A stretch of DNA of 64,000 nt from a virus (Duplodnaviria; Caudoviricetes), in the IMG/VR virus record IMGVR_UViG_2524614764_000005, positions 40,462 to 104,461 of that record; one strand, given 5' to 3'. This document shows, piece after piece, positions 4,200-60,072 of this stretch. Position numbers and translations under genes: made by a program. The notes under the pieces were generated by a model. That model was not told the origin of the DNA and did not search any database. It worked only from the letters and a program-made list of their open reading frames with translations. Within the stretch, counting starts at the first letter, position 1, and the number at the start of each line of letters is the position of its first letter.

Positions 4200-4243
4200 T
4201 CATCATCCTCATCAATAAATTAAGTTAAAATTAAAGTTTTATA

Positions 4244-4339
4244 TCAATTAGCAATCATTAGTGACAGTACGTTCTTGCTATCATCAGATAAATCGTGCCA
4301 ATGTTCTGCTAAGATACGAATAAATTCATTACCAGACAT
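4244..4339 (-). CDS. Small hypothetical protein (31 aa, MSGNEFIRILAEHWHDLSDDSKNVLSLMIAN)
   Basis: SD AAAGGGATG before ATG; fills the gap in the operon. Confidence 0.5.
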   Translation of the reverse strand: MSGNEFIRILAEHWHDLSDDSKNVLSLMIAN

Positions 4340-4352
4340 TTAATCATCCCTT

Positions 4353-5552
4353 TCACTTACTGTTATTGAAACGAATTATGTATGTAGCTTCAATACCTTC
4401 TTCATCAAATACCATGAATTTCTGTGAAGGCTTAGTTCCAAAACGTCCTTGCATAGCGTAGTCATCAGCGCCTACCAAAGCTCCGTTTACAACTACAGTA
4501 GTGCTGCCGTATTCTTTTTCGTAATTGTGGTGAACATGTCCACCGAATATGTAAGAAGGAATATAACCAAGTAATTGAGGTAATCGTGTCACGCATTGAT
4601 CAACACGATCATAGTGACCATGCACAAACACCACTTCTTGATTTTTAATTTTTGTAGGGATGAAACCGTCTTGTTCTTGTTCGAAAGTGATATTTGGAAA
4701 GTGGCTGAGGCGTGCTTTTAAGTACCAGTTGATGAAATACTCAAAGTTCTCTTTGATTCCAACATCATTTTTCGAAGGGGATAAGCGACCATGGTTTCCT
4801 GCTACGCTATAGAATTTAACATGCTCAAACTCACTAGCGAATGCCGCTAAAATTTCAGCTAATGTTTCAGTAACATACTGAGTTTGCTCAACAGAGTCAG
4901 TATTAGCTTGAACTCGTGTTGAAACATGAATCAATCCACCGATCAAATCACCAAGGTTGGCTACATGCAGAGTTGAAATTCCGTTTGTTTTTCCATGTTT
5001 AATAACGTCCTGTGCTAATTTTTGAACTCTTTCATTGAAAACTTGTTCGTTGAAGGTGTTAATACGATTATCGATATCCATTCCAAAATGCCAGTCACTG
5101 AATAATGCTAGACCGTGCTTATCAGAAGTTGAAGGGGGAGGTGGAGAGAATGTAAGAGGGCGCTTTTTCTCTAATTCCAAAATTGCTTCAGTCATATCAT
5201 CACGAATACGATCGAAGCGAGCAGAGTTTCTAATCTTCTTTGTGAACTCTCTATTCTGATCACGTCTACGGACTTCCGCTTTAGCAGCTTCAATTTTAAT
5301 CTCATCATATTTGTCAACAATTTCTTGTTCAAGATTCTTGTTTACATGGTAATCAGCCCATCTGCGGTATTGAGCAAAGTCTTTACGCCATTTACTTTCT
5401 CCATAGTTCTCACCAGATTCTTCATTTAGCAAATCTCTAATAACAAACTTGTCGATTTTATAATCGTGTTTATTTGTATGTAATCTAATAAAATAGTCGT
5501 CAAAGCTTTCGTCTTTTCCACGTTGTAATTCTGGATTTGTAATTACGCTCAT
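4353..5552 (-). CDS. yonJ: Calcineurin-like metallophosphoesterase/nuclease
   Basis: SDWHFG, GDLIGG, GNHGR, HGH and GHVHH motifs; synteny. Confidence 0.8.
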   Translation of the reverse strand: MSVITNPELQRGKDESFDDYFIRLHTNKHDYKIDKFVIRDLLNEESGENYGESKWRKDFAQYRRWADYHVNKNLEQEIVDKYDEIKIEAAKAEVRRRDQNREFTKKIRNSARFDRIRDDMTEAILELEKKRPLTFSPPPPSTSDKHGLALFSDWHFGMDIDNRINTFNEQVFNERVQKLAQDVIKHGKTNGISTLHVANLGDLIGGLIHVSTRVQANTDSVEQTQYVTETLAEILAAFASEFEHVKFYSVAGNHGRLSPSKNDVGIKENFEYFINWYLKARLSHFPNITFEQEQDGFIPTKIKNQEVVFVHGHYDRVDQCVTRLPQLLGYIPSYIFGGHVHHNYEKEYGSTTVVVNGALVGADDYAMQGRFGTKPSQKFMVFDEEGIEATYIIRFNNSK

Positions 5553-5566
5553 TAACTCACCAACCT

Positions 5567-5758
5567 TTACTCTTTGTCTTTAACAGGCAAATCATTTTCT
5601 TCCTTAATTATAATGCTGACCTGTTTTCCATTAAATTCAGATAAAATTTCTTTGAAGTCGTATGGAAGTTCCTCGTTACTTTTAACTTCGATGACTTCCA
5701 TAACATCCATATCGAAGAATCCTTTTAAATTAACTTGATTAGTCTTTTTACTTGCCAT
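5567..5758 (-). CDS. yonK: YonK family protein
   Basis: MASKK...KGFFDMDVMEV...YDFKEILSEFNGK closely matches SPbeta YonK. Confidence 0.9.
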   Translation of the reverse strand: MASKKTNQVNLKGFFDMDVMEVIEVKSNEELPYDFKEILSEFNGKQVSIIIKEENDLPVKDKE

Positions 5759-5789
5759 GTTAATACCTCCAAAATATATGTAATTTTAT

Positions 5790-6710
5790 TTAAACCGAAT
5801 AAATTCCTTCGGATGTCCAATGCCGACACATTGGAACACCCGAAAAAGGAGAGAAGAAGGGGGATAAAAAGAAATGTCGGAAGGGTGCTGGGGAAACACC
5901 CGAAGGAATTTACTAACAAAAATAACCTCATCTTTATAAGGTAGGGCTGTACGCTGATTGCGGGTTCAGCGATTGAAACCTTTGTAGTCGACAGACTTTA
6001 AGTAAGTCGATAGGATAGTAGCTAGTGAAGCACACTTTCTGGCACGTATTTTAACTCCCCGCCAGCGGAGAAATCATCGCTACTTGATGATTTGATATTC
6101 TGTGGGATTTCTTTTTTTAACGTGGGGCAGTCCCTACCACCAATACATAATTATCAATAGAAAGGTAAGACCCATGATAATCCTTCCTGAGACAAATTCT
6201 GTTGCACTTGTCAGGTCACACGCCCTTATCTACATACATTGCGTGTAGATCGCCAGTCTCTTATTCTGCATGGTTTTTCCTTACCTTGTGTGAGAAGGTA
6301 CATGCTTGGGGAAAATTTAGTTTAAAAGAAGATCGGACGCATCCAATCACCTTAAGTGAAGGCCTAAGCACAACACTTCAATTAGTTTTAATTGTCGAGC
6401 AAAACGCCTCCTATAATAAGCCCCTGCTAGGATACAGTCGCATTTATTTGAGCGTAAAGACTTATTGGCATTTGTAGCCCGATAATATTCATTTGGTATA
6501 AGTTGAAGAAGGGGGTGTCCAAACCTATATAAATGAATATTATCCGACTCAGGAGTAGCCATCTCCTATAAACAGAGTCAGACCTATCTTAAGAAAGGGA
6601 GTGAGACAGTTTGGAGAACAAAATTGTACAGGGTAGTCAACCCACTAATGACTATTATCCTATTAATAATCATTAGTCAGCCACGAATACCCCCATATTC
6701 GTGATAGACC
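5790..6710 (-). ncRNA. Candidate long structured non-coding RNA/leader between yonN and yonK
   Basis: About 950 bp with no credible ORF, higher GC than flanks and many long hairpins (5800-5912, 6228-6250, 6481-6544, 6644-6703). Confidence 0.4.
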
Positions 6711-6748
6711 TCTAATATTGAAGAAGTGTGTAATTTATTTAGATAAAA

Positions 6749-7024
6749 TTAACCTTTTACAGCATCTTTAAGTGCTTTTGCAGCTTTAAACTTCGGTGCT
6801 TTAGTTTCAGGAATATCGATTTCTTCACCTGTTGAAGGGTTTCGGCCTTTGCGAGCTGCACGAGTTGTTGATTCAAAACCACCAAAACCTGCGATCTTAA
6901 CTTGTCCACCTTCTTTTAACACAGATGTGATTTCATCTAAAGTCGTTTCAATTACCGAAAGTACTTCTTTCTTAGTAAATCCTGTCTTCTCAACCACAGC
7001 TGAGACTAATTCTGTTTTATTCAT
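6749..7024 (-). CDS. yonN: HU-family DNA-binding protein
   Basis: MNKTELV...GFGGF...RAARKGRNPSTGEEIDIP...PKFKAAKALKDAVK. Confidence 0.95.
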   Translation of the reverse strand: MNKTELVSAVVEKTGFTKKEVLSVIETTLDEITSVLKEGGQVKIAGFGGFESTTRAARKGRNPSTGEEIDIPETKAPKFKAAKALKDAVKG

Positions 7025-7246: not shown

Positions 7247-7247
7247 C

Positions 7248-9779: not shown

Positions 9780-9791
9780 AAGCGCTCTCCT

Positions 9792-11843: not shown

Positions 11844-11848
11844 AACCA

Positions 11849-14768: not shown

Positions 14769-14816
14769 GAAGATATAGAAAAGAACGAAATAAAATGAAT
14801 ATTTTAAAGGGAGAGA

Positions 14817-17750
14817 TTGGATATGAAAAAAGAAAAACCGAACAACTGGGTATGGACTAAATTAACAGAAGAAAAGCATCCTGATAGAAAAGCTGGAACA
14901 CCTGTCCATACAGCTTATATGAGAGAGGGTGACGCTGAGTGGTCTCCTCACAGCTCATGGATTGCTAAAGGATATATCCAGCATGTTGATACGCTAAACT
15001 CGTCACAGTGAGTATAAACAAGCATTAGGCTGTGAGCGTCCTGGTCAATAGTGGCCAGGGGTTGTATCAAATGAAATTCTAATTTTATACAGAAGGAGAA
15101 TGAGATAATATGACAAAAGAAAATAGAAACTTAGATATGCTTGAAGCCGAAAGAAAGATTGCTAAAAATAGATTGCAAGAACAGATTATTAGTATTAAAA
15201 GAACCTTGGATGATCTTGAATTTAAGCTCAAGAAAGATGACAGGTATTTATTTTCATCTGATGGGCTTATGGGGAATAGTAATAGTATTGATATTTATTT
15301 AAATCAAGTTGTTGCATACGATCGAGCAATAGAATTAATGAAAAGTGAAAGTTAAATAAAATGTTGATTTTCTACAGAAGGGAGTGATTCTGTCTGAAAT
15401 ACTTAAACGAGGCTGAACAGCGTGAAATGTTGGAAGAAGAGGCTGAGAATTATTTGAGAAACCTCTACAATTCTAATCCAGTCGGCAGGGATGAAACCCC
15501 TAGCGTTTACCTGTCACAAGGAAAAATACAGGGTATGTGTAGAATATTTAATGCGACATTTACAGTAGAGCTTCGCAGAAAGATCACATTTTATAAATAC
15601 AATAAATATCTTGATGAGAAGTTTTGGTTTCATGTAGAGAGTGAATATTTAACAAAGGAAGAAGCAGAACGTTTAATTAGCCAGATAAACAGGGATAACA
15701 GAGAAATCATGCAAGGGCTGTTATGAGGAAGAGGGGGCAACCAATGAAATTTAAAAACAAATATGATGCTTTAAATTACATCAATGAAAAATACGATGTT
15801 GTAAGCCATGAGGTAACATCATTTGAAGAGATAGATGAGTTTTGGCATTGTCTTAAACAATTGAATTTCATGAATAAGATACATGGTGATGATTTTAAGT
15901 TGGCAGAAAAAATTTGTGTGTGATCTGTATAGAGGAGATTTATAAAATGAACAAAAAAGAAATGACGGAGCAGGAGTTAAATGATATAAAAACTGAAATA
16001 TTTCAATTAGAATCAGACAGAAATAATGTTGGTCATGCAGGCGTGATTGAATATATAGAGAAAAATTTGAAATTGTTGCGATTAGAAGAGGAGATGTATA
16101 AAAAAGAATTAGAAAGATTGAATGGATAGAATATTAATCTTCCACAGAAAGGAGTGATGAGATTGGGAAATGAAGTTGTGTTTCTTTGCAGAAAATGCAA
16201 TCATCACCTGTTTGCCGAAAATCCTACGATAAACACATTAAAAAGCATTTCAAAAATGGATTGCCCTGAATGTGGAGAAGAGGGTTATCATAATTGGATA
16301 CTCTCACATGTGGGTGATTCTGAGAAAGAGAACTATAATTGGAAATAGTTAAATTGTTTCTTGCAGGACGGAGTGGTAAATATGAGCAATGAAAACACTT
16401 GGGGATTAGCTTTTATCCAGATCGATGTCAAAGAGGATAGGTTCAATGAATTACTGTCACTAAACTTGGGTTCAGAACATAAGGCAAGGGAAGTTTTTAA
16501 TCGTGTTAAGAATGAGTTTAAGGAAAATGACGGAGAACCTGATGGTGTTATTGATCTTATAGATGAAAATGAAGAAATTATCGATGATTATGCACTTACT
16601 ACAAATCAATTGATTACAGTTGCCGCAATGCTTGGTCATGAAATCGGAAAATCAAAATAAAATGTTTCTTTTATACATAATGGAATTGTTTTTAATAAAG
16701 GAGGATGATTAGTATCGCAAACAAAGGAGATATTCTTGTATTCAAAGACGGTCAAGAATGTATGGTTGTCGAAAATAAAATAAGTCAAGGCAGCTACAAT
16801 GAAAAAGGCGAATACCATAGCTGGGATGACAGCAGGTGGATATTAGTGAATTTGGCAACAGGAAGTGTTGTATTACATTATCGATACAATATTCGATATG
16901 AAGATGGAATGCCTTATATACCTATGTGGGGCGGAGTAACAAAAGTTAAAAAAAAGGGATCAGAAGAAATAATACGTTTGAGTGAAAATAAGATAAAACA
17001 TGAGTTTTAAACAAATAAATAACACATATTAAAAAGGAGTAATAGTCATGTATGTTGTTAGATTAAATGGTGGTTACTTTAAAAAGGGATATATCAATAT
17101 TGCAGGATTAGAGTTAGATCCATCAACGCCATTGAAAAAAGATGCTAGGAAGTTTAAGAGCATGAAACAAGCTTATTTTTTCTCTTATAAAATGAATGGC
17201 AAAGTCGAGAAAGCATAATAAATATTCTTAAAGGAGTGTACCATGAATGAAAACAATCCAGGAGCGGTTATTAAAACGGCGAGATGATTTAATCAGTGTT
17301 GCTGTATTTAGTATATTGGCCATTATGCTGCTTTGTGCATTTGTTTATTCTGGATGAATTATAAATTACATATATTTGAGAGGTGAATAATATGCGAGAT
17401 CTAATTAAGAAAGAACTTTCAAAACCAAGTATACACAACATGTTTAAAGGTTGGGCAGATCAGGAACAAATTTTAGATGAACTTGAAGAAGGGTACGTAA
17501 GTTATGATGGCAGCGTAGAGGATTACTTAAGTAACAAATTAAACTACTGAGCTTCTACATAAAAAGGGGTATGACCAATGCCAATTGGAAAACAATTAAA
17601 ACAAAAATTAGCTAACACAAATGCTTTTGAGAAGAAACATAATGAATTCTTAATAGAAATTAAAGAATTTAAAAATAATAAAGAACTCCAAAATGAATAT
17701 AAACGTGTGCAGCATGTTCTGAAAGATTCAATTGATGGGAGAGAGTCTTA
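14817..17750 (+). other. Cluster of about 12 small hypothetical early genes (14817-15011, 15110-15355, 15394/15427-15726, 15744-15923, 15947-16129, 16154-16348 Zn-finger, 16382-16660, 16705-17010, 17048-17218, 17392-17550, 17578-17751)
   Basis: Tightly packed, SD-preceded ORFs; no recognisable families apart from a CxxC...CPEC finger. Confidence 0.7.
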
Positions 17751-19119: not shown

Positions 19120-19685
19120 AACCCAGTGTTCATACGAAGTGCAAAAATGTTGCGATATGGCAGCAAATAAAATACTCAAGTAAAATGGTGCTTGTGTTAC
19201 TATCATTTCAAATGAGAGTATTTATTCATCACAGATGACGGGCTATGTTAAACATAGGGCTTAGTTTCAACCGACACTCTCACAGCGCAATTTTGAGCTG
19301 TCAACTCATGAAGTAGTAATAAGCTGATGTCATTTGAAACGACGGGAGATGCCGTCACGAATCGTTACGTCATCAATAAACAAATACTCACTCACCACAA
19401 AATTGTGGTCAGTAAAAAATTTATGGAATAGGGTGTAGTAAACAGAGTGTGTAGAAGGAGATTTTTCACTCAGTAATCTTTCCGAGTGAAAACATGAAAT
19501 GAGCTTAATTTTGAGCCGGTGTCATTTCAAATGAGACCGGCTTCTGAATAAAATGATGTTTTTATTAATAAAATAATAATGTTGAAACTGATATCCTACT
19601 AAACTAACAATATGTTACAATGCCAATATAAGGATAACTTTAAAAGTAACTCACAAATGACAGCTGCTGAAAGGTTTGTTGAAAA

Positions 19686-20312: not shown

Positions 20313-20408
20313 CTTATTGACTGTTATAAGAAACAATTGCAAAATGAGCTTCAGTGTTAGTAATAAAGATCAAATAAAATCATTCTTTTAAGGAGAGGTG
20401 ACAGTTAG

Positions 20409-21461: not shown

Positions 21462-21516
21462 AATTAAATGTGCTATTTTAAATAAAAGAAGTATTTCATT
21501 TAGAAGGTGATGAAAA

Positions 21517-24291: not shown

Positions 24292-25374
24292 ATGAATTCG
24301 AAAGCAGTCCCATTAAAGGAATACACTGTATATAACGATATAATGACCTATCTAAAAAAGATCGATGATGAAGGATCAGTAGGAAATATTGATGTTTTTT
24401 CTAAAACACAGCGGAGACATAAATTGTTTGAGACAAATACAGCAGTTAATTATTATGGTGACATTAAACAATTCTTTGGTTTTCTTAAACCCACTATTGG
24501 AATAGAGTTTTTAACTCCGAAAGATATTGAAATCACATCAATTGACCTGATAAATTTTAGGAAACATCTGAAAGAAAAAGGTTTGGCGAATTCAACTATC
24601 AACCGTAAAGTGATATCAGTTAAAGGCTTATACAAGTTTCTTAAGTCAGTTAGTACTTATTCTTCTTCAATTGATTTAAATCAATTTGGATCAACAAAGA
24701 AATTAAAAGAAATCTCTAAAAGTTACGGCAAAACTACACAAACTGAAGCAGAAAGAATTGCTGAAAACATGCTATTTGAGCGGGAGAATGGCTTAAAAAA
24801 GAAGCTACTAACAAAATTTCTAATTCGTACTTCTTTTAGGATCGAGTATGCACTTACTGTTAGATGGATGGATATCAAGAAAGTTGATGGTGAATTGTAT
24901 AAAGTTGAAGCTTTGAACAAAGGTTCGTATGTAGTTTCTACAGGACTACATGAAAATTTCTTAAATGAGTTGCGGCAATTAAGAAAACAAAACAGTATGG
25001 AGAATGATTTAGTGTTTGGTGGATTGACATCAAGATCTTACAGAGAATCGTTCAACAGAGCTTTGGATAGATTAGATATACCTGCATCAAGAAACCTTAA
25101 ACCTCACTCTTTAAAGGGAGTTGGGATTGATATAGCTTATGAAGAGTCTGGCAATGATATTCGAGTTGCTATGAATCAAGGGAACCATAAAGATCCTACG
25201 ACTCCATTGAGATATTTAACTAAAAATGACAACATCGAAAACTCTGCGGGTATATTGATGGATAAAGAAGTAGATTTTACATTGATTGAAAGTGCGACAA
25301 AAGAGGATTTTGTCAATTTTTTTCGTAAAGCAGATAGGGGAACTATGCAAAAGTTCCTAGATTTTGTGAGGTAA
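24292..25374 (+). CDS. yopP: Tyrosine-recombinase-fold protein (SroD)
   Basis: SAM-like domain (LANSTINRKVISVKGLYKFL); catalytic-type residues SFR, PHSLK, GNH...RY. Confidence 0.8.
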   Translation: MNSKAVPLKEYTVYNDIMTYLKKIDDEGSVGNIDVFSKTQRRHKLFETNTAVNYYGDIKQFFGFLKPTIGIEFLTPKDIEITSIDLINFRKHLKEKGLANSTINRKVISVKGLYKFLKSVSTYSSSIDLNQFGSTKKLKEISKSYGKTTQTEAERIAENMLFERENGLKKKLLTKFLIRTSFRIEYALTVRWMDIKKVDGELYKVEALNKGSYVVSTGLHENFLNELRQLRKQNSMENDLVFGGLTSRSYRESFNRALDRLDIPASRNLKPHSLKGVGIDIAYEESGNDIRVAMNQGNHKDPTTPLRYLTKNDNIENSAGILMDKEVDFTLIESATKEDFVNFFRKADRGTMQKFLDFVR

Positions 25375-25457: not shown

Positions 25458-26846
25458 ATGAATAAGTTAGTTATTTTTGATAATGAAAAAGATGCTTTAC
25501 TAAATGAAACAATAGAAATGCTATTGCAAAAAAATAAACATGACAAACAATTTAGAGAAAGACTGCAAAATGCTCTTTCTCATAAAGGCGTTTCGCCAGG
25601 GGAAACGATGAATCTAATAATAAGATTTGGGAGACAGGAAGCGCTGCAGAAAGAAGAAAAATACCTACTAGCTTCAGGTATATACGAAGTAACTAAAGAT
25701 GAAAAGATTAATCCAATAAATTATTTTCCGGAAAGAATAATTCAAGAAATTGAAACAACGTGGGAAGGTTTCTCACAGAATAATGACAGTGAGCTGAATT
25801 TTCCCATAAAATTTGAGGATGTTACTAAAGTAGATGACAACAACTACACATTCTTACTTAAAAGAAGTGAAATAGCAAAGATGTATGAAAACCATTTGCT
25901 TCAATACAACCCAAGAACTCAAAGGACTAGTGAGACTAAAAATTTTGAGTTCTTAGGTGGTGAAATACCTATCCCTGAGCTAAATCAAAACGCAGTAGAA
26001 GAGATTTCACAAAAAACTATCTATGGTACCTTAATAAGCTCAACTTTAATACTTAACGCAAGATTTGGTTCATCTTCCGAAGGGATTGAGGTAGTTTATG
26101 ACCCCCATGAAAGAACTTTAACAGTTATGAGCGGCACTCTGCTAGATGTAATTGATGGTTATCATCGAATTGTAGGGATATCGAAAGCAGTAAGATCTGG
26201 CAGCTTTGATGATAAATTTATGAAAATAGACTTTTATAATGTAACTCAGAAAGTTGCAAGACAGTTATTTGGTCAGCATAATACAATGACTCCTGTAAGA
26301 CTTTCGAAGTTAAAAGAAATGAATGAAGAAAATCCTGTGAATAAAGTTGTTACTCATATAAGAGACAACAGTGTAATTGGACAGAGAATCAGTTTAGATA
26401 TTGATGTTATTACAACTCATTCAGATTATTTATATTCTTTAAATGACGTAGCAAATGCAGTTGAGGCTACAAAATTTCCTAAGCTGCTTAAAGATCAGAT
26501 TGCTGTAAGAAAAATAGGGGTTTATTTGGTAGAATTTTTTGATGAAGTGACTGAGTTTTATTATGAAGAGTTTCTGGGTGACAAATTTGAGCAGGCGCAA
26601 AAAACAATTGTAATAAATAAAAATATTTTAGTTGGATTGATGGAAATAGCGTATTATATGTACACTTCTGGAATTAGCGCAAAAATGGCGCAACAAATAA
26701 TTATAAAAAAGGGATTTAACTTCAACAGAAATAATCCAGAATTAACAAAATACAAAATATTGAATAAAAAAAATGAAGTAACTCACAGTAAGAATCATAT
26801 TTTAAAATATGTTAAAGACAAATTGAATGAAGTAGAAGGTGTATAG
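25458..26846 (+). CDS. yopQ: DndB/ParB-like protein (SroE)
   Basis: QYNPRTQR and IDGYHR motifs; synteny. Confidence 0.75.
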   Translation: MNKLVIFDNEKDALLNETIEMLLQKNKHDKQFRERLQNALSHKGVSPGETMNLIIRFGRQEALQKEEKYLLASGIYEVTKDEKINPINYFPERIIQEIETTWEGFSQNNDSELNFPIKFEDVTKVDDNNYTFLLKRSEIAKMYENHLLQYNPRTQRTSETKNFEFLGGEIPIPELNQNAVEEISQKTIYGTLISSTLILNARFGSSSEGIEVVYDPHERTLTVMSGTLLDVIDGYHRIVGISKAVRSGSFDDKFMKIDFYNVTQKVARQLFGQHNTMTPVRLSKLKEMNEENPVNKVVTHIRDNSVIGQRISLDIDVITTHSDYLYSLNDVANAVEATKFPKLLKDQIAVRKIGVYLVEFFDEVTEFYYEEFLGDKFEQAQKTIVINKNILVGLMEIAYYMYTSGISAKMAQQIIIKKGFNFNRNNPELTKYKILNKKNEVTHSKNHILKYVKDKLNEVEGV

Positions 26847-31480: not shown

Positions 31481-31522
31481 CAAAATAAAAGATAGTTTTT
31501 AAGGGGTTATGTAACGGAGAGA

Positions 31523-41344: not shown

Positions 41345-41389
41345 AGAATAAAACTGTCATTTTAATTTAAAAATAACATACAAAAAGTA

Positions 41390-47580: not shown

Positions 47581-49284
47581 ATGTTGGAATATAGGCTAAT
47601 AGGAAAAAATGATTTTGAACAAGATATCGTCAAAAATATTCTAAGCAATAGAGGTATTTATAGCTCTGAGATGAGTTCTGTTTTAAGCCCAACAGCAGTT
47701 AATGAGGAACCTTATTCTTTATTATGTAACATAAATAAAGCTTCTGAATTGCTAATAGAACATATGAAGAAAAACAGCAATATTTTTATCCAAATTGATA
47801 GTGATACTGATGGCATCACTTCTTCTATAATTTTAATAAAGTACATAAAGAAAATGTTTCCTAAATCCAAAATTACATATAGGATGCATGAAGGGAAAGA
47901 GCATGGGATTATTCTCGATACAGTGCCTGATAACACTGATTTAGTGATAATTCCAGATGCGGGTTCTAATCAATACGAAATCCATAAGGAGCTTAAGGAA
48001 AGAGGCTGTGATGTATTAGTCATTGACCATCATGAATGTGAAGATGAGTCGCAGTATGCAATAGTTGTTAATAATCAGCTTTCACCCAATTATTTAAACA
48101 AGTCACTAACGGGGGCTGGAATGGCTTACAAAGTATGCCAGGCTCTTGATGATAAGCTCGGAAAAAATTATGCTGAAGAGCTGCTTGATTTAGTTGCGAT
48201 TGGCAATATTGCCGATTCTGCAGATTCAAGAAATTTAGAAACAAGATATTACATATTAAAAGGGTTAGATTGTGTTAAAAATCCACTTTTGAAAAAGCTG
48301 TTTAAAAAGCAGGAGTTTTCAACAAATGGTGTTAAAACAATTCAGAATACTCAATTCTATATCAACCCACTTATAAATGCTGCGATTAGAGTAGGTTCGA
48401 AAAAAGAAAAAGACCAGTTGATTAAATCATTTCTTGGTTCAAGAGAAAAGGTTCTATATAAAAAGCGTGGATCTGCAGTTGAAGAATCAATTTCAATTCA
48501 AGATGATACTGTAAGAGTTCTAACAAATTTAAAGAATAAACAAAAGAGATTAGTTGATAAAGCAACTGATGAAATTGTCCAAAAGATATACCAAGAAAAT
48601 TTGTTAGAAAACAAGATACTCTCTGTAAATATTGAAGGTATTCTCGAAAAGAACCTAACAGGCTTAGTCGCAAATAAACTAGCCGATAGGTTTAAAAGGC
48701 CAGTTTTACTTGCTAGGGATGCAGAAAACGATGAGTTTCTAATAGGTTCAATAAGAGGATATGATAAAGGAGGAGTTAAAAACTTTAAAGAGTTACTGAT
48801 ATCAACGGGTCTATTTGAATTTGTTGAAGGGCATGCGAATGCAGCTGGATTTTGTATCAAAAAAAATAGTTTTAATAAAATGAATACAGCGCTTAACGAT
48901 TTGTTAAAAGATATTGAACACAAGACAGTTCTTGATGTCGATTTTGAAATTCCATTTAAACTTCTTAAAGAGAATTTTATTTTAGAGATTGGTAATCTAA
49001 GAGAACTATGGGGTTACAAATTAGAAGAGCCTTTAGTTGCATTCACGGATATTCATGTGAGCAGAAGTGAAATAGAGTTAATTAAAAAAAGAACGACTAC
49101 TCTGAAGATAAGTTCAACACAGGCAGAGTTCAAAAAGCAATTTTATAAAAATGAATTCCCTCAGCTGTTAGATGAAAGCGAAAGTTATGTGTTGAATTGT
49201 ATAGGGAAATGCAAGCTATCTGCCGATAATAAACCCTATATTGAAATTGTAGACTTGAAAGTGGTTCATAGTTTTCTGTTTTAG
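47581..49284 (+). CDS. yorK: RecJ-like DHH ssDNA exonuclease
   Basis: DSDTDG, DHH, GSIRG, GHANAAG. Confidence 0.9.
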   Translation: MLEYRLIGKNDFEQDIVKNILSNRGIYSSEMSSVLSPTAVNEEPYSLLCNINKASELLIEHMKKNSNIFIQIDSDTDGITSSIILIKYIKKMFPKSKITYRMHEGKEHGIILDTVPDNTDLVIIPDAGSNQYEIHKELKERGCDVLVIDHHECEDESQYAIVVNNQLSPNYLNKSLTGAGMAYKVCQALDDKLGKNYAEELLDLVAIGNIADSADSRNLETRYYILKGLDCVKNPLLKKLFKKQEFSTNGVKTIQNTQFYINPLINAAIRVGSKKEKDQLIKSFLGSREKVLYKKRGSAVEESISIQDDTVRVLTNLKNKQKRLVDKATDEIVQKIYQENLLENKILSVNIEGILEKNLTGLVANKLADRFKRPVLLARDAENDEFLIGSIRGYDKGGVKNFKELLISTGLFEFVEGHANAAGFCIKKNSFNKMNTALNDLLKDIEHKTVLDVDFEIPFKLLKENFILEIGNLRELWGYKLEEPLVAFTDIHVSRSEIELIKKRTTTLKISSTQAEFKKQFYKNEFPQLLDESESYVLNCIGKCKLSADNKPYIEIVDLKVVHSFLF

Positions 49285-53121: not shown

Positions 53122-53639
53122 AAAGAAAAGTTATTGCAATTGATATGGATGATGTATTAGCAGATTTCTTACCAGCTTGGGTAAAAGCAATCAATCAACA
53201 TGATGACCCATCATTAAAATGTGAAAACATAAAGTCTTGGAGCATCTTAGATTACGTGAATACAAAAAATGATGTGTTTAGGCATTTAACGTATGACTTC
53301 TTTAAGGGTTTAACAGAAAAAAAAGACAGCCAGAAAGTTGTTAAGAATCTATGTGATCTCTACGAAGTGTATGTTGTTACTACTGCAACAGCACATCCAG
53401 AATCATTAAAAGCTAAATTAGAATGGTTGCAGGAACACTTTCCATTTTTCTCATATGACCATGTTGTTCTTTGTGGAAATAAAAAGATCATTAAAGCTGA
53501 TTACATGATTGATGATGGAATACATAACTTGGAGAAATTTGAAGGCGTGGGCATAGTGTTTGATGCACCTCACAATGAAGATGATAAAAGATTTGTCCGT
53601 GTTAAGAATTGGGAAGAAATCGGTCAGAAATTACTTTAA
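53118..53639 (+). CDS. yorS: 5'(3')-deoxyribonucleotidase (HAD)
   Basis: IDMDDVLAD, MIDDG. Confidence 0.9.
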   Translation: MKRKVIAIDMDDVLADFLPAWVKAINQHDDPSLKCENIKSWSILDYVNTKNDVFRHLTYDFFKGLTEKKDSQKVVKNLCDLYEVYVVTTATAHPESLKAKLEWLQEHFPFFSYDHVVLCGNKKIIKADYMIDDGIHNLEKFEGVGIVFDAPHNEDDKRFVRVKNWEEIGQKLL

Positions 53640-53681
53640 AATATCTCTTTTATAGAAAATTAATATTAGGAAGGTGTCTGA

Positions 53682-54482: not shown

Positions 54483-54563
54483 TAAATTGAAGGAACATAG
54501 TAAAACTAGAGTTTTTGGAATCAAAATAAAAGATCAATTTCAATCAGAAAGGGAAGGTGAAAT

Positions 54564-57500
54564 ATGACAGAAAGTGAAATTATTATTACAAACTTTAAAA
54601 AGAGTGTTGAAGAATTTCGTATTAAACTGGCCTCTGGTAGAGAAGCGCACCCTGAAAAATTTATTCAATATTTAGCTACTGAAATCCAGGCTTTAAATAA
54701 TTTAAAGGAAGCATACCAAGAAGGTATGAACATTATTAACGCCGACTTGAAAAAACACGGTCTAGGAAAATGAAAAGTATCCTAGAGCAAATCAACTCAT
54801 TGAAAGTCGTACATATTGATTTAGACAACTACGCAATTTACGTTAAGCAAAACAAGCAAGTGATTCATATATTGCATACATTGATTAAGGATATGACAGT
54901 AGAGGAATACATACATAGCTTCAGTAAAGATGGTTTAATCGATCTAATTCCAGCAGTAATTGGAACAGGGGTTGCTGATGGATATAAACAAGGCAAGGGA
55001 TTTGTATCTGAACCTAAACAGTTCTACATGCAACGGTGTTTAGAGTTGAACAACAAAATTGAATTCCTTGAGAATATGATTGTGTCACTTGGTGGCCATC
55101 CTAAAATGCAAATTGTTGATAAGAATAATCTAATTCACTAGAGAGGAAGAAAGGAATGAAATTTAAAATTGGGCAGAGCGTTCTGATTTCATCTAGGGGT
55201 GTTGTTGGTAAAGTTATTAAAGCAACACACCATGTATCAATTGAAAAAGGAAAAGAACTGAATGTTATTAAGTATAAGGTTGAAGTAGACGGGCTTTTGT
55301 ACGCCCAGGAATTTGATGAATCATTACTTACATATGAAGATAAAGAATCTAGGAAGATTAAAATAGCTGAGATAAATTCACTAATTGACCAAGCATTAGA
55401 TACAAAAGATAAGGATTGGTTTGATGATTTAATTCAACAAAGAAAAACTTTAGAAGAAGGGTTAGTGGAGTAGATAGAGAATTATTTTAGAGTATTATGG
55501 AACGGAACAAGAGTTCCAAAGAAGTTTGATACCAAAGCAAAAGCAGAAGTGTTTGTTAGACGAAGAAAAGGTTTCACCTGTGAGATACAAGAACGTACAT
55601 ATGATAATAAGTTTATAGACAGCTGGACATACCATATTCCATTGCATTAAGGCGGTGAAACAATTCTGAAAGAACGTGATAAAGCTATGATGGAAGATGA
55701 TTTGGAGGCCGTACATAACAACCTGGATTTTATACATAAGACTCTGGAGGATGCTGCTTCAATTGACGAGGAAACGTGGCACTTAATAGAACCTAAGATT
55801 GTTAAGTCATGGGTATTGTTAGAGGAAGTAAAGAAGAACATAGTATCACAATAAATTAAAAATAACATATAAAAATTGTTGATTAAAATACAAATTACAT
55901 ATATAATCGATATAACAGCTAAGGAGAATCAATGGACTACATATGCGAGATTTGCAACGAAGGGGTTGAGAAATACCCCTTATGTTTAAGATTAACAGAA
56001 GAGAACGCAAAAAGCATGGAAGACAGAATTGAATTCAATTGCTGCAGCAAATGTGTTGATGATTTGAGCAAGAAAATTCGAGAAAAGTGTGAGGGGATGA
56101 ATGTAAAGAAAACATTGAAAGTTCTTGGGATTGATGATATTAAGCCTTATAAAGATTAAAAATGAAAAGGGAGAGATGTTAATGTCAAAAGTTAAATTCA
56201 CAGGAAAAGTGGGAACTACGAGAATGAATTTTATGAAAGAAGGTTGTAAGGATCTACACTCTGCATACTACACGACTGTTGAAACCACCTGTGGGCAAAA
56301 ACTCACTGTAAAGGATGCGGATGCCCCTTTTGGATTAATGGAGGCTCCTACTCGTTCTGAAGCAATTAAAAAGGGAAAACAGTTTTTAGATCGTGTGGGT
56401 TTAACATAAAAAAAAATTAAAGGAAAGTGTAAACTGTGAAAAACATAGATGAATCAAAATGGTTTGGTGTAATTGGTAACGTTGGAATGTTTGTACTTGC
56501 TATCCTGGGAGAAATATTTAAATAAAATTCAAGTTTTATAGAGAATGGAAAAGGTGAAAACAAGCTTTTTCAAATAGTAAATTTTCAGGAGGTTTAAAAA
56601 ATGAAATACGCCATCCCTTATGAACATCTTGAGGAAGAGCTTGTGGCAGAAGGTACGGAGTACACACTTGAACTTAGTAAGTTACTCTTTCATTTTAATA
56701 AAGTTAAAGAGAGTGCGAATAAGTACAGATTGGAATTGTCGGATGAAAACTTTAAGCGCTTTTTTAGACTTCACGTATCCGGTACAGATATAGATTGGAT
56801 AATGCATATAATGACTACTTATAAAAATTCGTTCACAGACACATTGGTTCAATACATTACTTCATGATTTAGGAAGGGGAACGCTATTGAAAAAGAATAA
56901 GCAGTTTGATAAGACATTCTGGCTAACATTAATCAAATGGGCAGCACCAACATTCTTAGTTGGATACTTAATTGGTTTTCTGCTGCCAAACATAGTTTTA
57001 TCTCAATAAGATACAAATTACATATATGCAAAGGGGAATAATAGATGACTATTAACGCAACTGTTAATAAACATGTGCCAGAGGCTGTCAGATTTATAAA
57101 TGTTGAACATAACGACTTAATTGTTTTTGGAGAGAATAAGGAAAAAGCATGGATTATTAAAAATGATGGTGCAAGTATATGGTCAATTATTGACACCAAA
57201 TCTTTTAGCTTTGTTGGTGGGGGCGATAAATTAAATATTGCAAGAGTGTTAAAGCAATGTGTACCTCATGATAGTTACACCGTCTACAAAACTAACCAAT
57301 ACACTATTGAAATTGCTGTTAAGTGGGGAGTTACTGAATAAAAGTTTTATTTCATTGTAAGGAGTGTTGAATGATGGAAGTATTTGAAAAGGCGGTTGTA
57401 ATTGATGATTACACTCTAGGAATCACTTTTTTTGCTAAAAAAAGTAGTTTGGGTTGGTCGATAACTCAAGTTAGTGTGAAAAATCATCAAACAAATAAAA

Positions 57501-59235
57501 TTGTTTATCGAAGTAACAACCTATTTAATGGAACTACACAATTATCGCTTAAAGGTGTTTTTAAGAAAATTGCTATTACAGTTAAGGATCATTTAATGAG
57601 TAACAGAGAAATTAATAAAGAAATTGAAGAATTAGAAGAATGGGATGGGGTTGTTAATTTTTAAAAGAAAGGCAGGTCAATAATTGAGTTATAAAAATAT
57701 GAGATATGAAACAATCAAAAAAACTATAGTACTAAATGGATTCGAACATTCATTGAAGATTCTTGCTGATCGTCTTTCAAATGGATGGAGAGTATGGGGA
57801 TTTGCTATTACTGGGGAACAATATAATGGACTGTTCTGGTATGGCGAGTGCACAGACTATGAGGATATGAAAATTAAAGAAGTAGTATTAAGGCTTGTTG
57901 AAAAGATGAAAGCTCAAGTGGAAAACAATAAAAAAGAAAAAGAAGAAATGGAAGAGTTCAATAATTGGGACGGAGTCATCAATTTTAAATAAAAATTAAT
58001 TGGAGGTCTATTAATATGTCAAAATTATTCGATTTTAATGTGGGTCAAGAGGTTATTATGTTTGTTCAGGGAGCAGGGACTATTGCAGAAGAACTGCACA
58101 CTGTTGAAGAGGTTAATAACGGTGTAGTTAAAGTAGATGACTGTGCCAAAGAGTTTGGATTAGATGGAAAATGGCTTGGTATTGATACTTTCTTTGGATT
58201 CAATTTCTGGATTAAACCAGCTACTAAATAAAAGGATGATTTCAAAGAGAAATCAGATGAGGAGGATAGGATGCAATACACCAAGCATGGAAATTCAGTA
58301 GAAGGTTACATAACATTTAATCTTTATTTTCATTCATTTGATTATAAAGAGGATAGCATATTGGAACAAGTAAGATTCACCACAGTTAACGAGCTATTCA
58401 ACATGATGCAGCCTGATTATATTGAGCAACTAAAACAAGAAAATGGTGCAGAGCAGGTTGAACTTCACGATATCACTTTCAGTGCTAAAGATGACGACAC
58501 GGAGGCTTTCATCATAATGTATGACAACTCAGGAAGTTATCGAATCTCAACAAATCTTGATGTAAGTGGATTAGATAGTGAGTATAAAGAAACTTTAAAA
58601 AGTATTAAAGATATTCTAGATAAGAAGATGTAAAACAAAAGGAGGAAATTCTAAATGGCATATGATGAGTTTAAAGGAAAGCTAAGTAAGCCCAAAGTAA
58701 GTGATGTAATCAAAGCATTACAAGATCAACTTGATTTTAACGGAGACACAAGAGTTAGTTTCAGAATTGATGGAGAAGAGACAAGCGATGAAATTCAACT
58801 AGATCCATATAAAAATGTTCTTGTGTTGAATTTAGAGGAAAATTAAGGAGGTATCTCATGTACTTTATAACAGAACCAACTGATTTAATTGACAAAGAGG
58901 TTGGGTTCATTCATGCTAATCAATTTTACGATGCAACTACAATCGTGACTAAAGATGGTGGCATATTAATTGTTAAACAAGTTTTTGATTTTGAAGAAGA
59001 GCCAAGCACTATTGTTTATAACGAGCACCAAGCCAAAAAAAAGATTTATGAGGATAGCTATGTAAAGAATGAGCTTGATAAGTTGGGAATAATTACTGAG
59101 AATGACTGGGCTGAATATGAGCTGCAACTTAAGGAAGCAGAAGAAGCTCGTAGGATTGAGTTCCGGAAGGAAAAAGAAGAGCGAGAAAGACTTGACTATG
59201 AACGATTGAAATTGAAGTTTGAGGGGGAGAATTAA
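54564..59235 (+). other. Cluster of about 15 small hypothetical genes
   Basis: Co-oriented SD-preceded ORFs (e.g. 54564-54773, 54770-55141, 55156-55473, 55932-56159, 56601-56867, 57045-57341, 57371-57664, 57684-57992, 58016-58231, 58271-58633, 58655-58846, 58858-59235). Confidence 0.7.
55879..55907 (+). promoter_or_regulatory. SPBRE sigma-A promoter
   Basis: TTGATT-AAAATACAAATTACATA-TATAAT. Confidence 0.85.
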
Positions 59236-59256
59236 ATAGACATATTTGAGCATATC

Positions 59257-59460
59257 ATGTGCGACTTCAAACATTATAAGGGCGGAACCTATAAACTCGT
59301 TGGAGAAGTCATTCATACAGAAACAGAAGAAGAGCTTGTTGTTTACCATGATATGGACGGCACTGTATTATGGGCAAGACCTAAAGAGATGTTCTTTGGA
59401 AAAGTTGTTGTTGATGGGGAAGAGATCGACAGGTTCACAAAAATCAATAAGAAGATATGA
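59257..59460 (+). CDS. DUF1653 family protein
   Basis: FKHYKGGTY...HTETEEELVVY...WARPKEMF. Confidence 0.8.
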   Translation: MCDFKHYKGGTYKLVGEVIHTETEEELVVYHDMDGTVLWARPKEMFFGKVVVDGEEIDRFTKINKKI

Positions 59461-59510
59461 AGGATTGAAGATGACTTAAGCCATCTCCTAACCAACATAC
59501 CTCAATACAG

Positions 59511-59654
59511 TTACTTTCTTTTAGCCTTTGCTTGAGAAAGAACTGATCCAGCTAAACTCTTAGCTGTCTTACTTGAAGATTTAGAATTAAGTACTTTAGA
59601 AGCTTTGGTTGCAAGTTTTGAAGATGAAACTCTTCTGCTGCTAGACTTTGCCAA
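59511..59654 (-). CDS. Small, very basic Ser/Lys/Ala-rich protein (47 aa)
   Basis: TTG after SD AGGTGGTG; MAKSSSRRVSSSKLATKASKVLNSKSSSKTAKSLAGSVLSQAKAKRK. Confidence 0.7.
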   Translation of the reverse strand: MAKSSSRRVSSSKLATKASKVLNSKSSSKTAKSLAGSVLSQAKAKRK

Positions 59655-59766
59655 GGGAATCACCACCTATCGAGGGAAAGTGTGTTCTATATAACTAAAT
59701 ATAGTATATAGATTTATCTCAAGAATACAAGATATTGATCAAATTTTATTTTCGGATGATAAACTG

Positions 59767-60033
59767 ATGAAATTTTTTGAAGTAAATGAACCTTACAGTG
59801 CTTTAATTAAAGCGAGAACAAAAGAAAAAGCAATGGAGATTTACACAGATACCGTCGCTGATGATGATGGTAATCTATCTGAAGAAATCACTGAAGTAAC
59901 AGATTTATATTCAGCAGTTTTTCATAGTCGTACAGTAGATTATAATGGGAAACAGTTGTCTGCTAATGAAGTATTTGAACAACTAACAAACGATGAAGAA
60001 ATGTTGCTGTCAATGGATCAGAGTTTACAATAA
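59767..60033 (+). CDS. Hypothetical protein
   Basis: 88-aa ORF. Confidence 0.6.
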   Translation: MKFFEVNEPYSALIKARTKEKAMEIYTDTVADDDGNLSEEITEVTDLYSAVFHSRTVDYNGKQLSANEVFEQLTNDEEMLLSMDQSLQ

Positions 60034-60072
60034 AATCACAGTTTCATATAAATAAAAATTGGGGGAAATACA

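What the first reader, a model, noticed from the sequence alone, without database searches (positions are those of the whole stretch)
4226..60046. Candidate integron-like gene-cassette system: TAAAA-N6-TTT(T/C)A dyads punctuate the accessory genes
Seen in sequence: I found 13 copies of TAAAA-N6-TTTTA (4226, 14791, 16658, 16994, 19549, 20375, 29174, 31486, 34391, 36290, 41349, 53637, 56523), 6 of TAAAA-N6-TTTCA (21483, 33703, 54527, 57339, 58229, 60031), one inverted copy (15072) and several degenerate ones. All 20 six-bp cores differ. Nearly all lie at or just after a gene end, usually shortly before the next SD, and in 8 cases the TAA is the upstream stop codon. They bracket foreign-looking single genes: Ntn-hydrolase (19549/20375), PIN (20375/21465-21483), MTase (53637/54501-54527) and the 33740 ORF (33703/34391). 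Tandem doublets (21465+21483, 54501+54527, 56523+56555) look like empty-cassette scars. I saw none at junctions of the conserved packaging, sro or replication operons. A rough estimate (about (1/3)^10 x 64 kb per variant) gives only 1-3 chance hits. Established knowledge: inverted arms around a 6-bp core is tyrosine-recombinase geometry (XerCD/dif), and Tn916-type integrases tolerate heterologous 6-bp coupling cores. Inference: these are recombination sites through which the phage gains, loses and shuffles one-gene cassettes. A 5-bp A/U stem is too weak to be a terminator. The alternative is a dispersed repressor operator; the SPBRE core TAAAA-TACAAA-TTACA has the same 5+6+5 geometry. I am not aware of such a system being described for SPbeta-like phages.
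Basis: partly seen in the sequence, partly recalled or inferred. Interest (0 to 1): 0.92.

Follow-up and report, generated by a model that had tools for sequence, protein, structure and literature searches.

The report
Addressed crossover palindromes between phage genes
A strict 16-base palindrome (TAAAA, any six bases, TTTTA) sits between the small genes of this SPbeta-like Bacillus prophage; related phages keep each copy's own six-base centre while the genes beside it are swapped, so the copies look like fixed joints for exchanging genes, though the enzyme is not shown.

Summary
TAAAA-N6-TTTTA occurs 16 times in the window (1.4 expected), the TTTCA variant 8 times, and only the 6-base spacing is enriched. 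In intergenic DNA there are 16 copies against 0.29 expected. The core extends to a 28-bp imperfect palindrome (11-6-11) whose mirrored positions do not covary, so it fits protein half-sites better than a hairpin.

The motif is present 17-40 times in nine other phages of the SPbeta supergroup, weakly in Lactococcus phage 949 (7 against 3), and not enriched in six unrelated phages.

Homology blocks between relatives start and stop at the motif edges. 18 "slots" have the same two six-base centres flanking unrelated cargo. The window shares 9 centres, in nearly the same order, with SPbeta (about 1 expected), mostly without flank similarity.

Best reading (about 0.5): lox/dif-like recombination joints whose spacer acts as an address. 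The best candidate enzyme is the highly conserved Cre/Xer-fold protein YomM, rather than YopP. It is not an integron. The main rival is a protein-binding site with another primary role, where crossovers are a by-product. No binding or catalysis is shown. This scan has noted the same motif before on other SPbeta-like DNA; I found no published description.

The parts
4226..4241 (.). Motif copy, centre TTAAAG, between the yonH-like gene and the next late gene
   Evidence: The same centre is at SPbeta 57148 and PJN02 139175, with no flank similarity.
6744..6759 (.). Motif copy, centre TTAACC; the stop codon of the HU-like gene (6749-7024, - strand) lies in the centre
14791..14806 (.). Motif copy, centre TGAATA, 16 nt before the start of ORF 14823
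15072..15087 (-). Motif copy (TTTCA arm on the - strand), centre TTCTAA as read on the + strand; left joint of a one-gene slot
   Evidence: With 15357 it forms the address pair TTCTAA/TGTTGA. That pair flanks yotC in SPbeta, phi3T and PJN02 but a different gene here and in Goe11.
15357..15372 (.). One-mismatch copy (TTTTC arm), centre TGTTGA; right joint of the same slot
16658..16673 (.). Motif copy, centre TGTTTC; its TAA is the stop codon of ORF 16382-16660
   Evidence: The same centre is at PJN02 153968.
16994..17009 (.). Motif copy, centre CATGAG, before ORF 17048
19549..19564 (.). Motif copy, centre TGATGT, upstream of ORF 19686-20312
20375..20390 (.). Motif copy, centre TCATTC, 18 nt before ORF 20409-21461
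21465..21480 (.). One-mismatch copy (TAAAT arm), directly before 21483
21483..21498 (+). Motif copy (TTTCA arm), centre GAAGTA
   Evidence: The orthologous SPbeta and L4 site has centre GAAGTG.
26221..26236 (-). Copy inside the YopQ/SroE-like ORF; probably a chance match
29174..29189 (.). Motif copy, centre TGTAAG
   Evidence: The same centre is at SPbeta 83688, where a 99.97% SPbeta/phi3T block starts at position 1 of the motif.
31486..31501 (.). Motif copy, centre GATAGT
   Evidence: The same centre is found in SPbeta, phi3T, Goe11, L4 and PJN02, without flank similarity.
33703..33718 (+). Motif copy (TTTCA arm), centre CAGAGA; left joint of ORF 33740-34393
   Evidence: The same centre is at L4 107440; the slot CAGAGA/GTAATT holds unrelated cargo in L4.
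34391..34406 (.). Motif copy, centre GTAATT; its TAA is the stop codon of ORF 33740-34393
36290..36305 (.). Motif copy, centre ACAACC, between divergent ORFs
37889..37904 (.). Copy inside ORF 37821-38591; probably a chance match
41349..41364 (.). Motif copy, centre CTGTCA, 46 nt upstream of a promoter/operator box
48693..48708 (.). Copy inside ORF 47581-49284; probably a chance match
53637..53652 (.). Motif copy, centre TATCTC; its TAA is the stop codon of ORF 53118-53639; left joint of the methyltransferase slot
   Evidence: Contigs of relatives stop fitting at 53620 and 53632 and resume at 54524 and 54529; in X5, 465 other letters replace the cargo.
54501..54516 (.). One-mismatch copy (TTTTT arm), centre CTAGAG, 10 nt before 54527
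54527..54542 (+). Motif copy (TTTCA arm), centre GATCAA; right joint of the methyltransferase slot
   Evidence: Five phages carry this centre with five different upstream flanks. The slot TATCTC/GATCAA holds 874 (here), 1059 (phi3T) and 135 (SPbeta) unalignable bases.
56523..56538 (.). Motif copy, centre TTCAAG
   Evidence: A contig piece of a relative ends at 56549.
57339..57354 (+). Motif copy (TTTCA arm), centre GTTTTA; its TAA is the stop codon of ORF 57045-57341
   Evidence: A relative's contig starts to fit at 57337. The slot GTTTTA/GGATGA holds four unrelated cargos in four phages.
58229..58244 (+). Motif copy (TTTCA arm), centre GGATGA; its TAA is the stop codon of ORF 58016-58231
   Evidence: Relatives' contigs start to fit at 58227 and stop at 58252.
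60031..60046 (+). Motif copy (TTTCA arm), centre TCACAG; its TAA is the stop codon of ORF 59767-60033
   Evidence: The same centre is at L4 3915. A relative's contig resumes at 60029.
24292..25374 (+).
   Evidence: PF02899 and PF00589 above the Pfam cut-offs. The Tyr and HxxK motifs are kept, but it is only 23-45% identical among motif-bearing phages.
26849..27838 (+).
   Evidence: PF22823 and PF22822; PMC10516654; bioRxiv 10.1101/2025.11.27.690993.

Best explanation
The TAAAA-N6-TTTTA copies are recombination joints of the lox/dif kind. Two inverted arms (the full half-site is about 11 bp, T-Y-W-R-A-A-TAAAA) would bind a phage tyrosine recombinase. The 6-bp centre would be the strand-exchange region, which must match between the two partners. 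Every copy in a genome has a different, non-palindromic centre, so copies within one genome would not recombine with each other. A copy can pair only with the copy carrying the same centre in another, related genome (a co-infecting phage or a resident prophage). Two such exchanges swap the gene or genes lying between two joints without changing gene order. The best candidate enzyme is the YomM-family protein, encoded in the late/structural region about 11 kb upstream of the window (G000:C1:28415-29416, - strand). Shown: the motif is real; it sits between cistrons; it is shared across genera; homology blocks break at its edges; and the same centres flank unrelated cargo. Inferred: that the crossover occurs inside the 16-mer, that a tyrosine recombinase performs it, and that this enzyme is YomM.
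For: 1. Real and spacing-specific. 2. The extended motif is an 11-6-11 imperfect palindrome whose mirrored positions show the same preferences but no covariation, so it fits independent protein half-sites. 3. N6-specific enrichment in SPbeta 34, phi3T 30, Goe11 34, SPbetaL4 40, PJN02 31, Geobacillus E3 30, Perkons 17, Tsamsa 23 and Staphylococcus SPbeta-like 17. Lactococcus phage 949, which also has a YomM homolog, gives only 7 against a control of 3. No enrichment in SPO1 0, phage K 4 (control 4), AR9 9 (control 10), 0305phi8-36 0, SPP1 0, EZ-2018a 1. 4. Among four Spbetaviruses, 13-20 of 128-150 BLAST block ends per genome lie within 15 bp of a motif centre, against about 5% of random intergenic positions. 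Starts cluster at positions -9 to +1 and ends at 14 to 23, with almost none in the centre. Junctions with the motif carry a breakpoint 63% of the time against 31% without. 5. A 3,213-bp SPbeta/phi3T block of 99.97% identity starts at position 1 of one copy and ends at position 14 of another, with unrelated DNA outside. The yotC gene is 98% identical between SPbeta/phi3T and PJN02, which otherwise share almost no nucleotide similarity, and is bounded by two copies. 6. Of 195 adjacent shared centre pairs, 42 have unalignable cargo, giving 18 distinct slots. 7. The window shares 9 centres with SPbeta (permutation mean 1.0, p<0.0005) in nearly the same order; 7 have no flank similarity and several have no protein homology on either side. 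It shares 4 with PJN02 (p=0.006). 8. Contigs of close relatives laid on 50000-64000 break at 53632|54529, 53620|54524, 57337, 58227, 60029, 54549 and 58252. 9. YomM is 86% identical to the SPbeta protein, against 45% for YopP, 39% for YopR and 43% for the terminase. It is 60-98% identical across Bacillales. It keeps R180, K211, H281, H309 and Y319 invariant. Its model matches XerA, Cre, Tn1549 Int and XerH over the full length.
Against: No binding, cleavage or recombination is shown for any protein. YomM has an invariant Lys where the second catalytic Arg should be, and Pfam's PF00589 did not match this copy at E<=0.01. YomM, YopP and YopR all travel with the same phage lineage, so co-occurrence does not single out one of them. 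Where both flanks are homologous, the centre diverges about as fast as the flanks: 5.9% against 7-11%, with arms at 0-3%. Laboratory phi3Ts x SPbeta hybrids have their crossovers in long identical blocks, and one maps to a 40-bp interval with no motif, so ordinary homologous recombination also shuffles these phages. Most block ends (about 85%) are not at the motif. BLAST extends through any conserved island, which pulls apparent ends towards its edges. The genome comparisons are not independent events.
Confidence: 0.5

Rival explanations
1. The palindrome is the binding site of a dimeric phage DNA-binding protein whose main job is something else. Candidates include read-through control or silencing between cistrons (like the stoperators of mycobacteriophage L5), or DNA architecture (for example the HU-like YonN homolog). 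The crossovers at the sites would then be a by-product: these short conserved islands are the only homology left between diverged genomes, as proposed for the PeSL cassettes of T4-type phages.
For: The site has dyad symmetry with independent half-sites. It is placed between cistrons across the whole genome. The arms are under much stronger constraint than the centre where flanks are homologous. Short-homology joints also occur between the repeated promoter boxes at about 51650 and 55879. An HU-family gene lies at 6749-7024.
Against: A protein that reads only the arms does not explain why individual centres persist, in order, when both flanking genes are replaced. Sixteen identical bases is very short for homology-driven exchange. 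MrpR/SroF, the known dispersed binder, gives peaks only at SPBRE and binds as a monomer (PMC10516654; bioRxiv 10.1101/2025.11.27.690993). No promoter-like or terminator-like signal coincides with the sites.
Confidence: 0.27
2. The sites are used by the host Xer recombinases (CodV/RipX in Bacillus), as pdif sites on Acinetobacter plasmids are thought to be. The phage recombinase-like proteins would play no part.
For: The 11-6-11 geometry, with an A-rich inner left arm and a T-rich inner right arm, is that of dif sites (comparison with dif is from memory). pdif modules are a precedent for genes flanked by Xer sites (PMC6449649).
Against: The motif tracks one phage lineage across hosts as different as Bacillus, Geobacillus, Psychrobacillus and Staphylococcus, and is absent from unrelated phages of the same hosts. 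The arms are symmetric, whereas XerC/XerD sites have two different arms. Similarity to the host dif site was not tested here.
Confidence: 0.07
3. The motif acts in the mRNA: a small intercistronic hairpin, or a protein-binding RNA element just upstream of the Shine-Dalgarno sequence, that sets processing, stability or translational coupling.
For: It always lies between a stop codon (often its own TAA) and the next ribosome-binding site, 3-30 nt upstream of it. The flanks are partly asymmetric with respect to the direction of transcription: A-A before the left arm, and TTTCA variants on the coding strand in 6 of 8 cases.
Against: The predicted folding energy is negligible (mean -2.0 kcal/mol against -1.05 for shuffles; the 16-mer alone does not fold). 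The TTTCA variant breaks a pair without compensation, and the outer mirrored positions do not covary. An RNA role does not explain conserved centres or block boundaries. No RNA reads were available for this phage.
Confidence: 0.06

Closest known systems
Heterospecific lox/FRT sites (Cre/loxP of phage P1, Flp/FRT), as used for recombinase-mediated cassette exchange (established knowledge)
   Same: Inverted arms around a short asymmetric spacer. A simple two-domain recombinase without arm-type sites: the YomM model matches Cre over its full length. Only sites with the same spacer exchange, so two different sites flanking a cargo give an ordered swap.
   Different: P1 has a single natural lox site, and cassette exchange with variant spacers is a laboratory design. 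Here 20-45 natural sites with different centres are spread over one genome and shared among phages. The arms are about 11 bp with a 6-bp centre, against 13 and 8. Activity is unproven, and the second catalytic Arg is Lys.
pdif sites and dif modules of Acinetobacter plasmids (PMC6449649)
   Same: Many 28-bp 11-6-11 sites lie in accessory regions and flank single adaptive genes, and the same module is found in different backbones. In both cases the mechanism is inferred from comparative data.
   Different: pdif sites have distinct XerC and XerD arms and are thought to use the host enzymes. Here the arms are symmetric, the sites lie in a phage, each has a position-specific centre kept in order, and a phage-encoded enzyme is the likelier actor.
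PeSL cassettes of T4-type phages (PMC2839356, PMC4122927)
   Same: A repeated short motif lies between small accessory genes in plastic regions, and insertions, deletions and replacements between relatives end at the motif.
   Different: PeSLs are an early promoter plus a stem-loop terminator, and shuffle by homologous recombination between copies. Here no promoter or terminator signal coincides with the sites, the motif is a 16-28-bp palindrome, and each copy has its own centre.
Integron attC/attI system
   Same: A tyrosine recombinase is suspected, and one-gene cassettes are delimited by imperfect palindromes.
   Different: There are no attC sites (57-141 bp, folded single strand, GTTRRRY core), no attI or Pc, and no array beside the integrase. 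Cassettes here carry their own ribosome-binding sites within long operons on both strands.
Stoperators of mycobacteriophage L5 (repressor gp71; from memory)
   Same: About 30 copies of a short site lie in short intergenic regions throughout a temperate phage genome.
   Different: Stoperators are asymmetric 13-mers, oriented with transcription and bound by the immunity repressor. Here the site is a palindrome with a variable centre, and the known repressor binds elsewhere.
SPBRE / SroF boxes of SPbeta-like phages (PMC10516654; bioRxiv 10.1101/2025.11.27.690993)
   Same: A-tract-rich repeats read by a tyrosine-recombinase-fold protein. This window's box contains TAAAA-TACAAA-TTACA, which is one mismatch from the TTTCA form.
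   Different: The boxes have a fixed centre and lie inside sigma-A-type promoters, with 13 copies in the window. They are bound by a monomer and differ between phages. The dispersed motif has invariant arms, a free centre and no promoter.

Membership tests
Integron (IntI, attI, attC cassette array) | attC sites: 57-141-bp imperfect palindromes with R/L boxes and a GTTRRRY core, recombined as folded single strands | tested here: not met
   The conserved unit is 16-28 bp, purely A/T in its arms, with no GTTRRRY core. Its predicted single-strand folding is negligible (RNA parameters).
Integron (IntI, attI, attC cassette array) | One array next to intI, with attI and the promoter Pc | tested here: not met
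   The sites are spread over the whole 104-kb provirus, among genes of both orientations. None of the three recombinase-like genes heads an array.
Integron (IntI, attI, attC cassette array) | Integron-type integrase with the IntI-specific extra domain | not tested
   Only general Pfam families were scanned; no IntI-specific model was run.
Simple tyrosine-recombinase core site (lox, FRT, dif type) | Two inverted recombinase-binding arms of about 11-13 bp around a 6-8-bp spacer | tested here: met
   The consensus is T-Y-W-R-A-A-TAAAA-N6-TTTTA-W-N-B-A-R-A, and mirrored columns show matching preferences. Only a spacing of 6 is enriched.
Simple tyrosine-recombinase core site (lox, FRT, dif type) | A cognate recombinase with the catalytic residues R, K, H, R, H/W and Y | tested here: inconclusive
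   The YomM family keeps R180, K211, H281, H309 and Y319 invariant, but has K284 at the second Arg position. The fold matches XerA, Cre and XerH. YopP also has HxxK and keeps the Tyr. Residues were assigned by motif position, not by structural superposition.
Simple tyrosine-recombinase core site (lox, FRT, dif type) | Exchange occurs within the spacer and needs spacer identity between partners | tested here: inconclusive
   Blocks break at the motif edges and the whole 16-mer is shared on both sides of each break. That is what exchange between equal spacers predicts, but it cannot be told apart from crossovers just outside the site.
Simple tyrosine-recombinase core site (lox, FRT, dif type) | Binding and cleavage of the site by the enzyme | not testable with these tools
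   This needs EMSA, suicide-substrate or in vivo recombination assays.
pdif / dif modules (host XerC/XerD) | Sites made of one XerC arm and one XerD arm that resemble the host dif site | tested here: not met
   Both arms are the same sequence in inverted order. Similarity to the Bacillus dif site was not computed.
PeSL-type regulatory cassettes | An early promoter followed by a stem-loop terminator | tested here: not met
   No terminator-like hit coincides with a motif copy. Only two weak promoter-like hits (9 of 12 positions) touch one, with totals below the shuffle counts.
Stoperator / dispersed repressor operator | Bound by the phage's immunity repressor | tested here: not met
   From the literature only: MrpR ChAP-seq gives ten peaks, all at SPBRE (PMC10516654), and SroF binds a 26-bp asymmetric box as a monomer. 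Other phage DNA-binding proteins remain untested.

The most novel reading that the evidence does not exclude
SPbeta-like phages of several genera carry a genome-wide address system. A highly conserved Cre-like recombinase (the YomM family, encoded among the late genes) recognises 20-45 lox-like sites per genome, each with a unique 6-bp centre. Phages that meet in the same hosts share the same set of centres in the same order. Co-replicating genomes can therefore swap any accessory gene slot precisely, without scrambling gene order. This would be programmed mosaicism, and not the usual accidental recombination followed by selection.
Probability: 0.33. Interest if true: 0.9.

Novelty: new variant of a known kind. 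Interest (0 to 1): 0.78.

Why it matters
SPbeta is a model temperate phage studied for about 50 years, yet I found no description of this motif in the papers I could search. If the copies are recombinase-driven, address-matched joints, phage mosaicism in this group would be an encoded function and not an accident. That would explain how accessory genes move between phages that otherwise share no DNA; earlier scan notes name anti-defence genes among them, and here a methyltransferase slot and the yotC gene are examples. It would also give a natural multi-site cassette-exchange system that could serve as a tool. Finally, it would assign a function to YomM, one of the most conserved proteins of the lineage, which has none so far. 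The hypothesis is directly testable in Bacillus subtilis 168 with existing phages.

Tried and rejected
1. Chance or composition: rejected by shuffles and spacing controls.
2. YonO promoter: rejected. YonO has one mapped start upstream of yonK and drives only the late operon (PMC5467207).
3. MrpR/SroF operator: rejected from the literature.
4. Sigma-A promoter or intrinsic terminator: no coincidence with the sites.
5. RNA hairpin: negligible folding energy and no covariation.
6. RNA-seq evidence: no public run holds more than 28% of the stretch and no usable RNA run exists, so nothing can be said about transcript ends.
7. Laboratory phi3Ts x SPbeta hybrids as a direct test: the crossover intervals are long identical blocks (1.4-18 kb) whose ends coincide with motif copies. 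One 40-bp interval has no motif. These are uninformative about the motif.
8. Breakpoints at SPbeta's own SPBRE copies as a short-homology control: the box sequence taken from this window does not occur in SPbeta, phi3T, Goe11 or L4, so the test gave nothing.
9. Cyclisation of headful-packaged, terminally redundant DNA by many lox-like sites (P1 analogy; packaging mode from bioRxiv 10.1101/2021.11.22.469490): considered and set aside. The sites are sparse next to the pac region and dense in the early arm, far from the expected redundant ends.
10. Direct sequence matches of YomM and YopP to solved structures: none.
11. 'Empty-cassette scar' doublets: the partner centres were not found in the relatives examined, apart from one hit in Perkons, so this stays untested.

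Full report
WHAT IS THERE

The window is bases 40462-104461 of a 104-kb IMG/VR provirus. It is a distant relative of Bacillus phage SPbeta: megablast finds only short stretches of 74-91% identity. Its best protein matches point to the B. pumilus/altitudinis group.

TAAAA-N6-TTTTA occurs 16 times, against 1.38 in dinucleotide shuffles. TAAAA-N6-TTTCA occurs 8 times, six of them on the coding strand. Only a spacing of six is enriched: 16 copies against 0-3 for N0-N20. This also holds within intergenic DNA alone: 14 and 28 copies in the provirus and in SPbeta, against 0-2 at other spacings. Shuffling the window's intergenic segments gives 0.29 copies against 16 observed.

Most copies lie between a stop codon and the next ribosome-binding site. 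In six cases the stop codon is the motif's own TAA. Three copies lie inside long ORFs, which is about the chance number. All 24 centres differ and none is palindromic.

ANATOMY

I aligned 49 intergenic copies from the provirus and SPbeta in the direction of transcription. This extends the core to T-Y-W-R-A-A-TAAAA-N6-TTTTA-W-N-B-A-R-A, an 11-6-11 imperfect palindrome. Mirrored columns show matching preferences (T at -6 with A at 22; C/T at -5 with G/A at 21). Within single sites, however, they pair no more often than shuffled columns do.

The TTTCA variant breaks a pair without compensation. The RNA is predicted to fold at only -2.0 kcal/mol, against -1.05 for shuffles. The motif therefore looks like two protein half-sites on duplex DNA, not a hairpin. 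No promoter-like or terminator-like signal coincides with the copies. The good sigma-A-type promoters in the window carry a different repeat with a fixed centre.

DISTRIBUTION

The same motif, with the same N6 specificity, occurs as follows:
- SPbeta 34, phi3T 30, Goe11 34, SPbetaL4 40
- PJN02 31 (a different genus with almost no nucleotide similarity to SPbeta)
- Geobacillus virus E3 30, Psychrobacillus phage Perkons 17, Tsamsa 23, a Staphylococcus SPbeta-like phage 17
- Lactococcus phage 949: 7 against a control of 3, which is weak

It is not enriched in SPO1, phage K, AR9, 0305phi8-36, SPP1 or EZ-2018a. In PJN02 it again sits between a stop codon and the ribosome-binding site.

WHAT RELATIVES SHOW

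Among four Spbetaviruses, 13-20 of 128-150 BLAST block ends per genome fall within 15 bp of a motif centre, against about 5% of random intergenic positions. Junctions with a motif carry a break 63% of the time against 31% without. The difference persists within classes of gene size and gap length. Block starts cluster at positions -9 to +1 and block ends at 14 to 23. Almost none fall in the centre.

Three examples:
- A 3,213-bp SPbeta/phi3T block of 99.97% identity starts at position 1 of one copy and stops at position 14 of another, with unrelated DNA outside.
- The yotC gene is 98% identical between SPbeta/phi3T and PJN02 and is bounded by two copies.
- Contigs of close relatives laid on 50000-64000 stop and resume at motif edges. 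The methyltransferase gene between 53637 and 54527 is replaced by 465 other bases in one of them.

THE CENTRES BEHAVE LIKE ADDRESSES

The window shares nine centres with SPbeta (permutation mean 1.0, p<0.0005) and four with PJN02 (p=0.006), but none with E3. Apart from TTCTAA (window 15072, SPbeta 131162), the shared centres lie in the same order. Seven of the nine have no flank similarity. For 54527, 57339 and 58229, neither neighbouring gene has a protein homolog in the other phages.

Across six genomes there are 195 adjacent shared pairs of centres. Of these, 42 enclose unalignable cargo, which gives 18 distinct slots. One example is GTTTTA/GGATGA, which holds four unrelated cargos of 299-874 bp in four phages.

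This reading was suggested by earlier notes of this scan. I tested it independently and it holds on this window.

CAVEATS

Where both flanks are homologous, the centre diverges about as fast as the flanks (5.9% against 7-11%), while the arms are almost invariant. Laboratory phi3Ts x SPbeta hybrids have crossovers in long identical blocks, and one lies in a 40-bp interval without a motif, so ordinary homologous recombination is also at work. Most block ends are not at the motif. BLAST extension through any conserved island also biases apparent ends towards its edges.

WHICH PROTEIN

All motif-bearing phages share three tyrosine-recombinase-like proteins: YomM, YopP and YopR.
- YopR (MrpR/SroF) is the repressor. 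It binds its own boxes as a monomer.
- YopP belongs to PF00589 but is only 23-45% identical among these phages.
- YomM is encoded about 11 kb upstream of the window. It is 86% identical to the SPbeta protein and 60-98% identical across Bacillales, which makes it far more conserved than the terminase.

YomM keeps R, K, H, H and the nucleophile Y invariant, but has Lys at the second Arg position. Its model (pLDDT 78.5) matches XerA, Cre, Tn1549 Int and XerH over the full length. A reader of dozens of identical arms should be this conserved, but the assignment remains an inference.

VERDICT

Probabilities:
- About 0.5: lox/dif-like joints addressed by their centre.
- About 0.27: a binding site with another primary role, at which crossovers are a by-product.
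- Small remainders: host Xer enzymes, or an RNA element.

I found no published description of the motif.

Noticed in passing
window 7047, 10012, 10045, 12720, 14745, 21851, 28972, 29241, 41395, 43141, 51629, 55884, 57007 (16-mers): Thirteen copies of a second repeat with a fixed centre (TAAAATACAAATTACA, up to 2 mismatches). Several lie in the spacer of good sigma-A-type promoters (for example 14740-14768, 41390-41416, 55879-55907). These are this phage's counterpart of the SPBRE/SroF boxes. The exact sequence does not occur in SPbeta, phi3T, Goe11 or L4.
   Followed up: partly
window 51629-51652 and 55879-55907: Contigs of three relatives join about 51650 directly to about 55853-55879, skipping 4.2 kb. 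The two ends are copies of the promoter/operator box, so this repeat also serves as a deletion or insertion joint.
   Followed up: partly
G000:C1:28415-29416 (- strand), about 11 kb upstream of the window; locus L054:1416-2417: The YomM-family Cre/Xer-fold protein is the most conserved protein of the lineage (86% to SPbeta; homologs in Geobacillus, Psychrobacillus, Staphylococcus, Mammaliicoccus and Lactococcus 949-group phages, usually next to tail genes). It has an invariant Lys in place of the second catalytic Arg. Its stop codon lies in the right arm of a motif copy (centre GAGGGA) that the relatives also keep.
   Followed up: partly
window 25458-26846 (+): The YopQ/SroE-like protein of the repressor operon matches the DndB family (PF14072, DNA-sulfur-modification-associated), E=1.5e-8.
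   Followed up: no
window 16163-16348 (yotC-like ORF); SPbeta 131157-131418; PJN02 154715-154974: yotC is 98% identical in DNA between SPbeta/phi3T and PJN02, phages that otherwise share almost no nucleotide similarity. In this window the yotC-like gene sits elsewhere, without flanking motif copies, while yotC's usual slot (15072/15357) holds another gene.
   Followed up: partly
Staphylococcus phage K NC_005880.2, 8377-8392 and 148208-148223: Phage K shows no motif enrichment, but it carries TAAAAGAGGGATTTTA in each copy of its terminal repeat. This is the same 16-mer as the copy next to yomM in the Spbetaviruses. It may be coincidence.
   Followed up: no
window 6749-7024 (-): An HU-family DNA-binding protein (YonN-like, PF00216, E=1e-32) whose stop codon lies inside the centre of the motif copy at 6744.
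   Followed up: no
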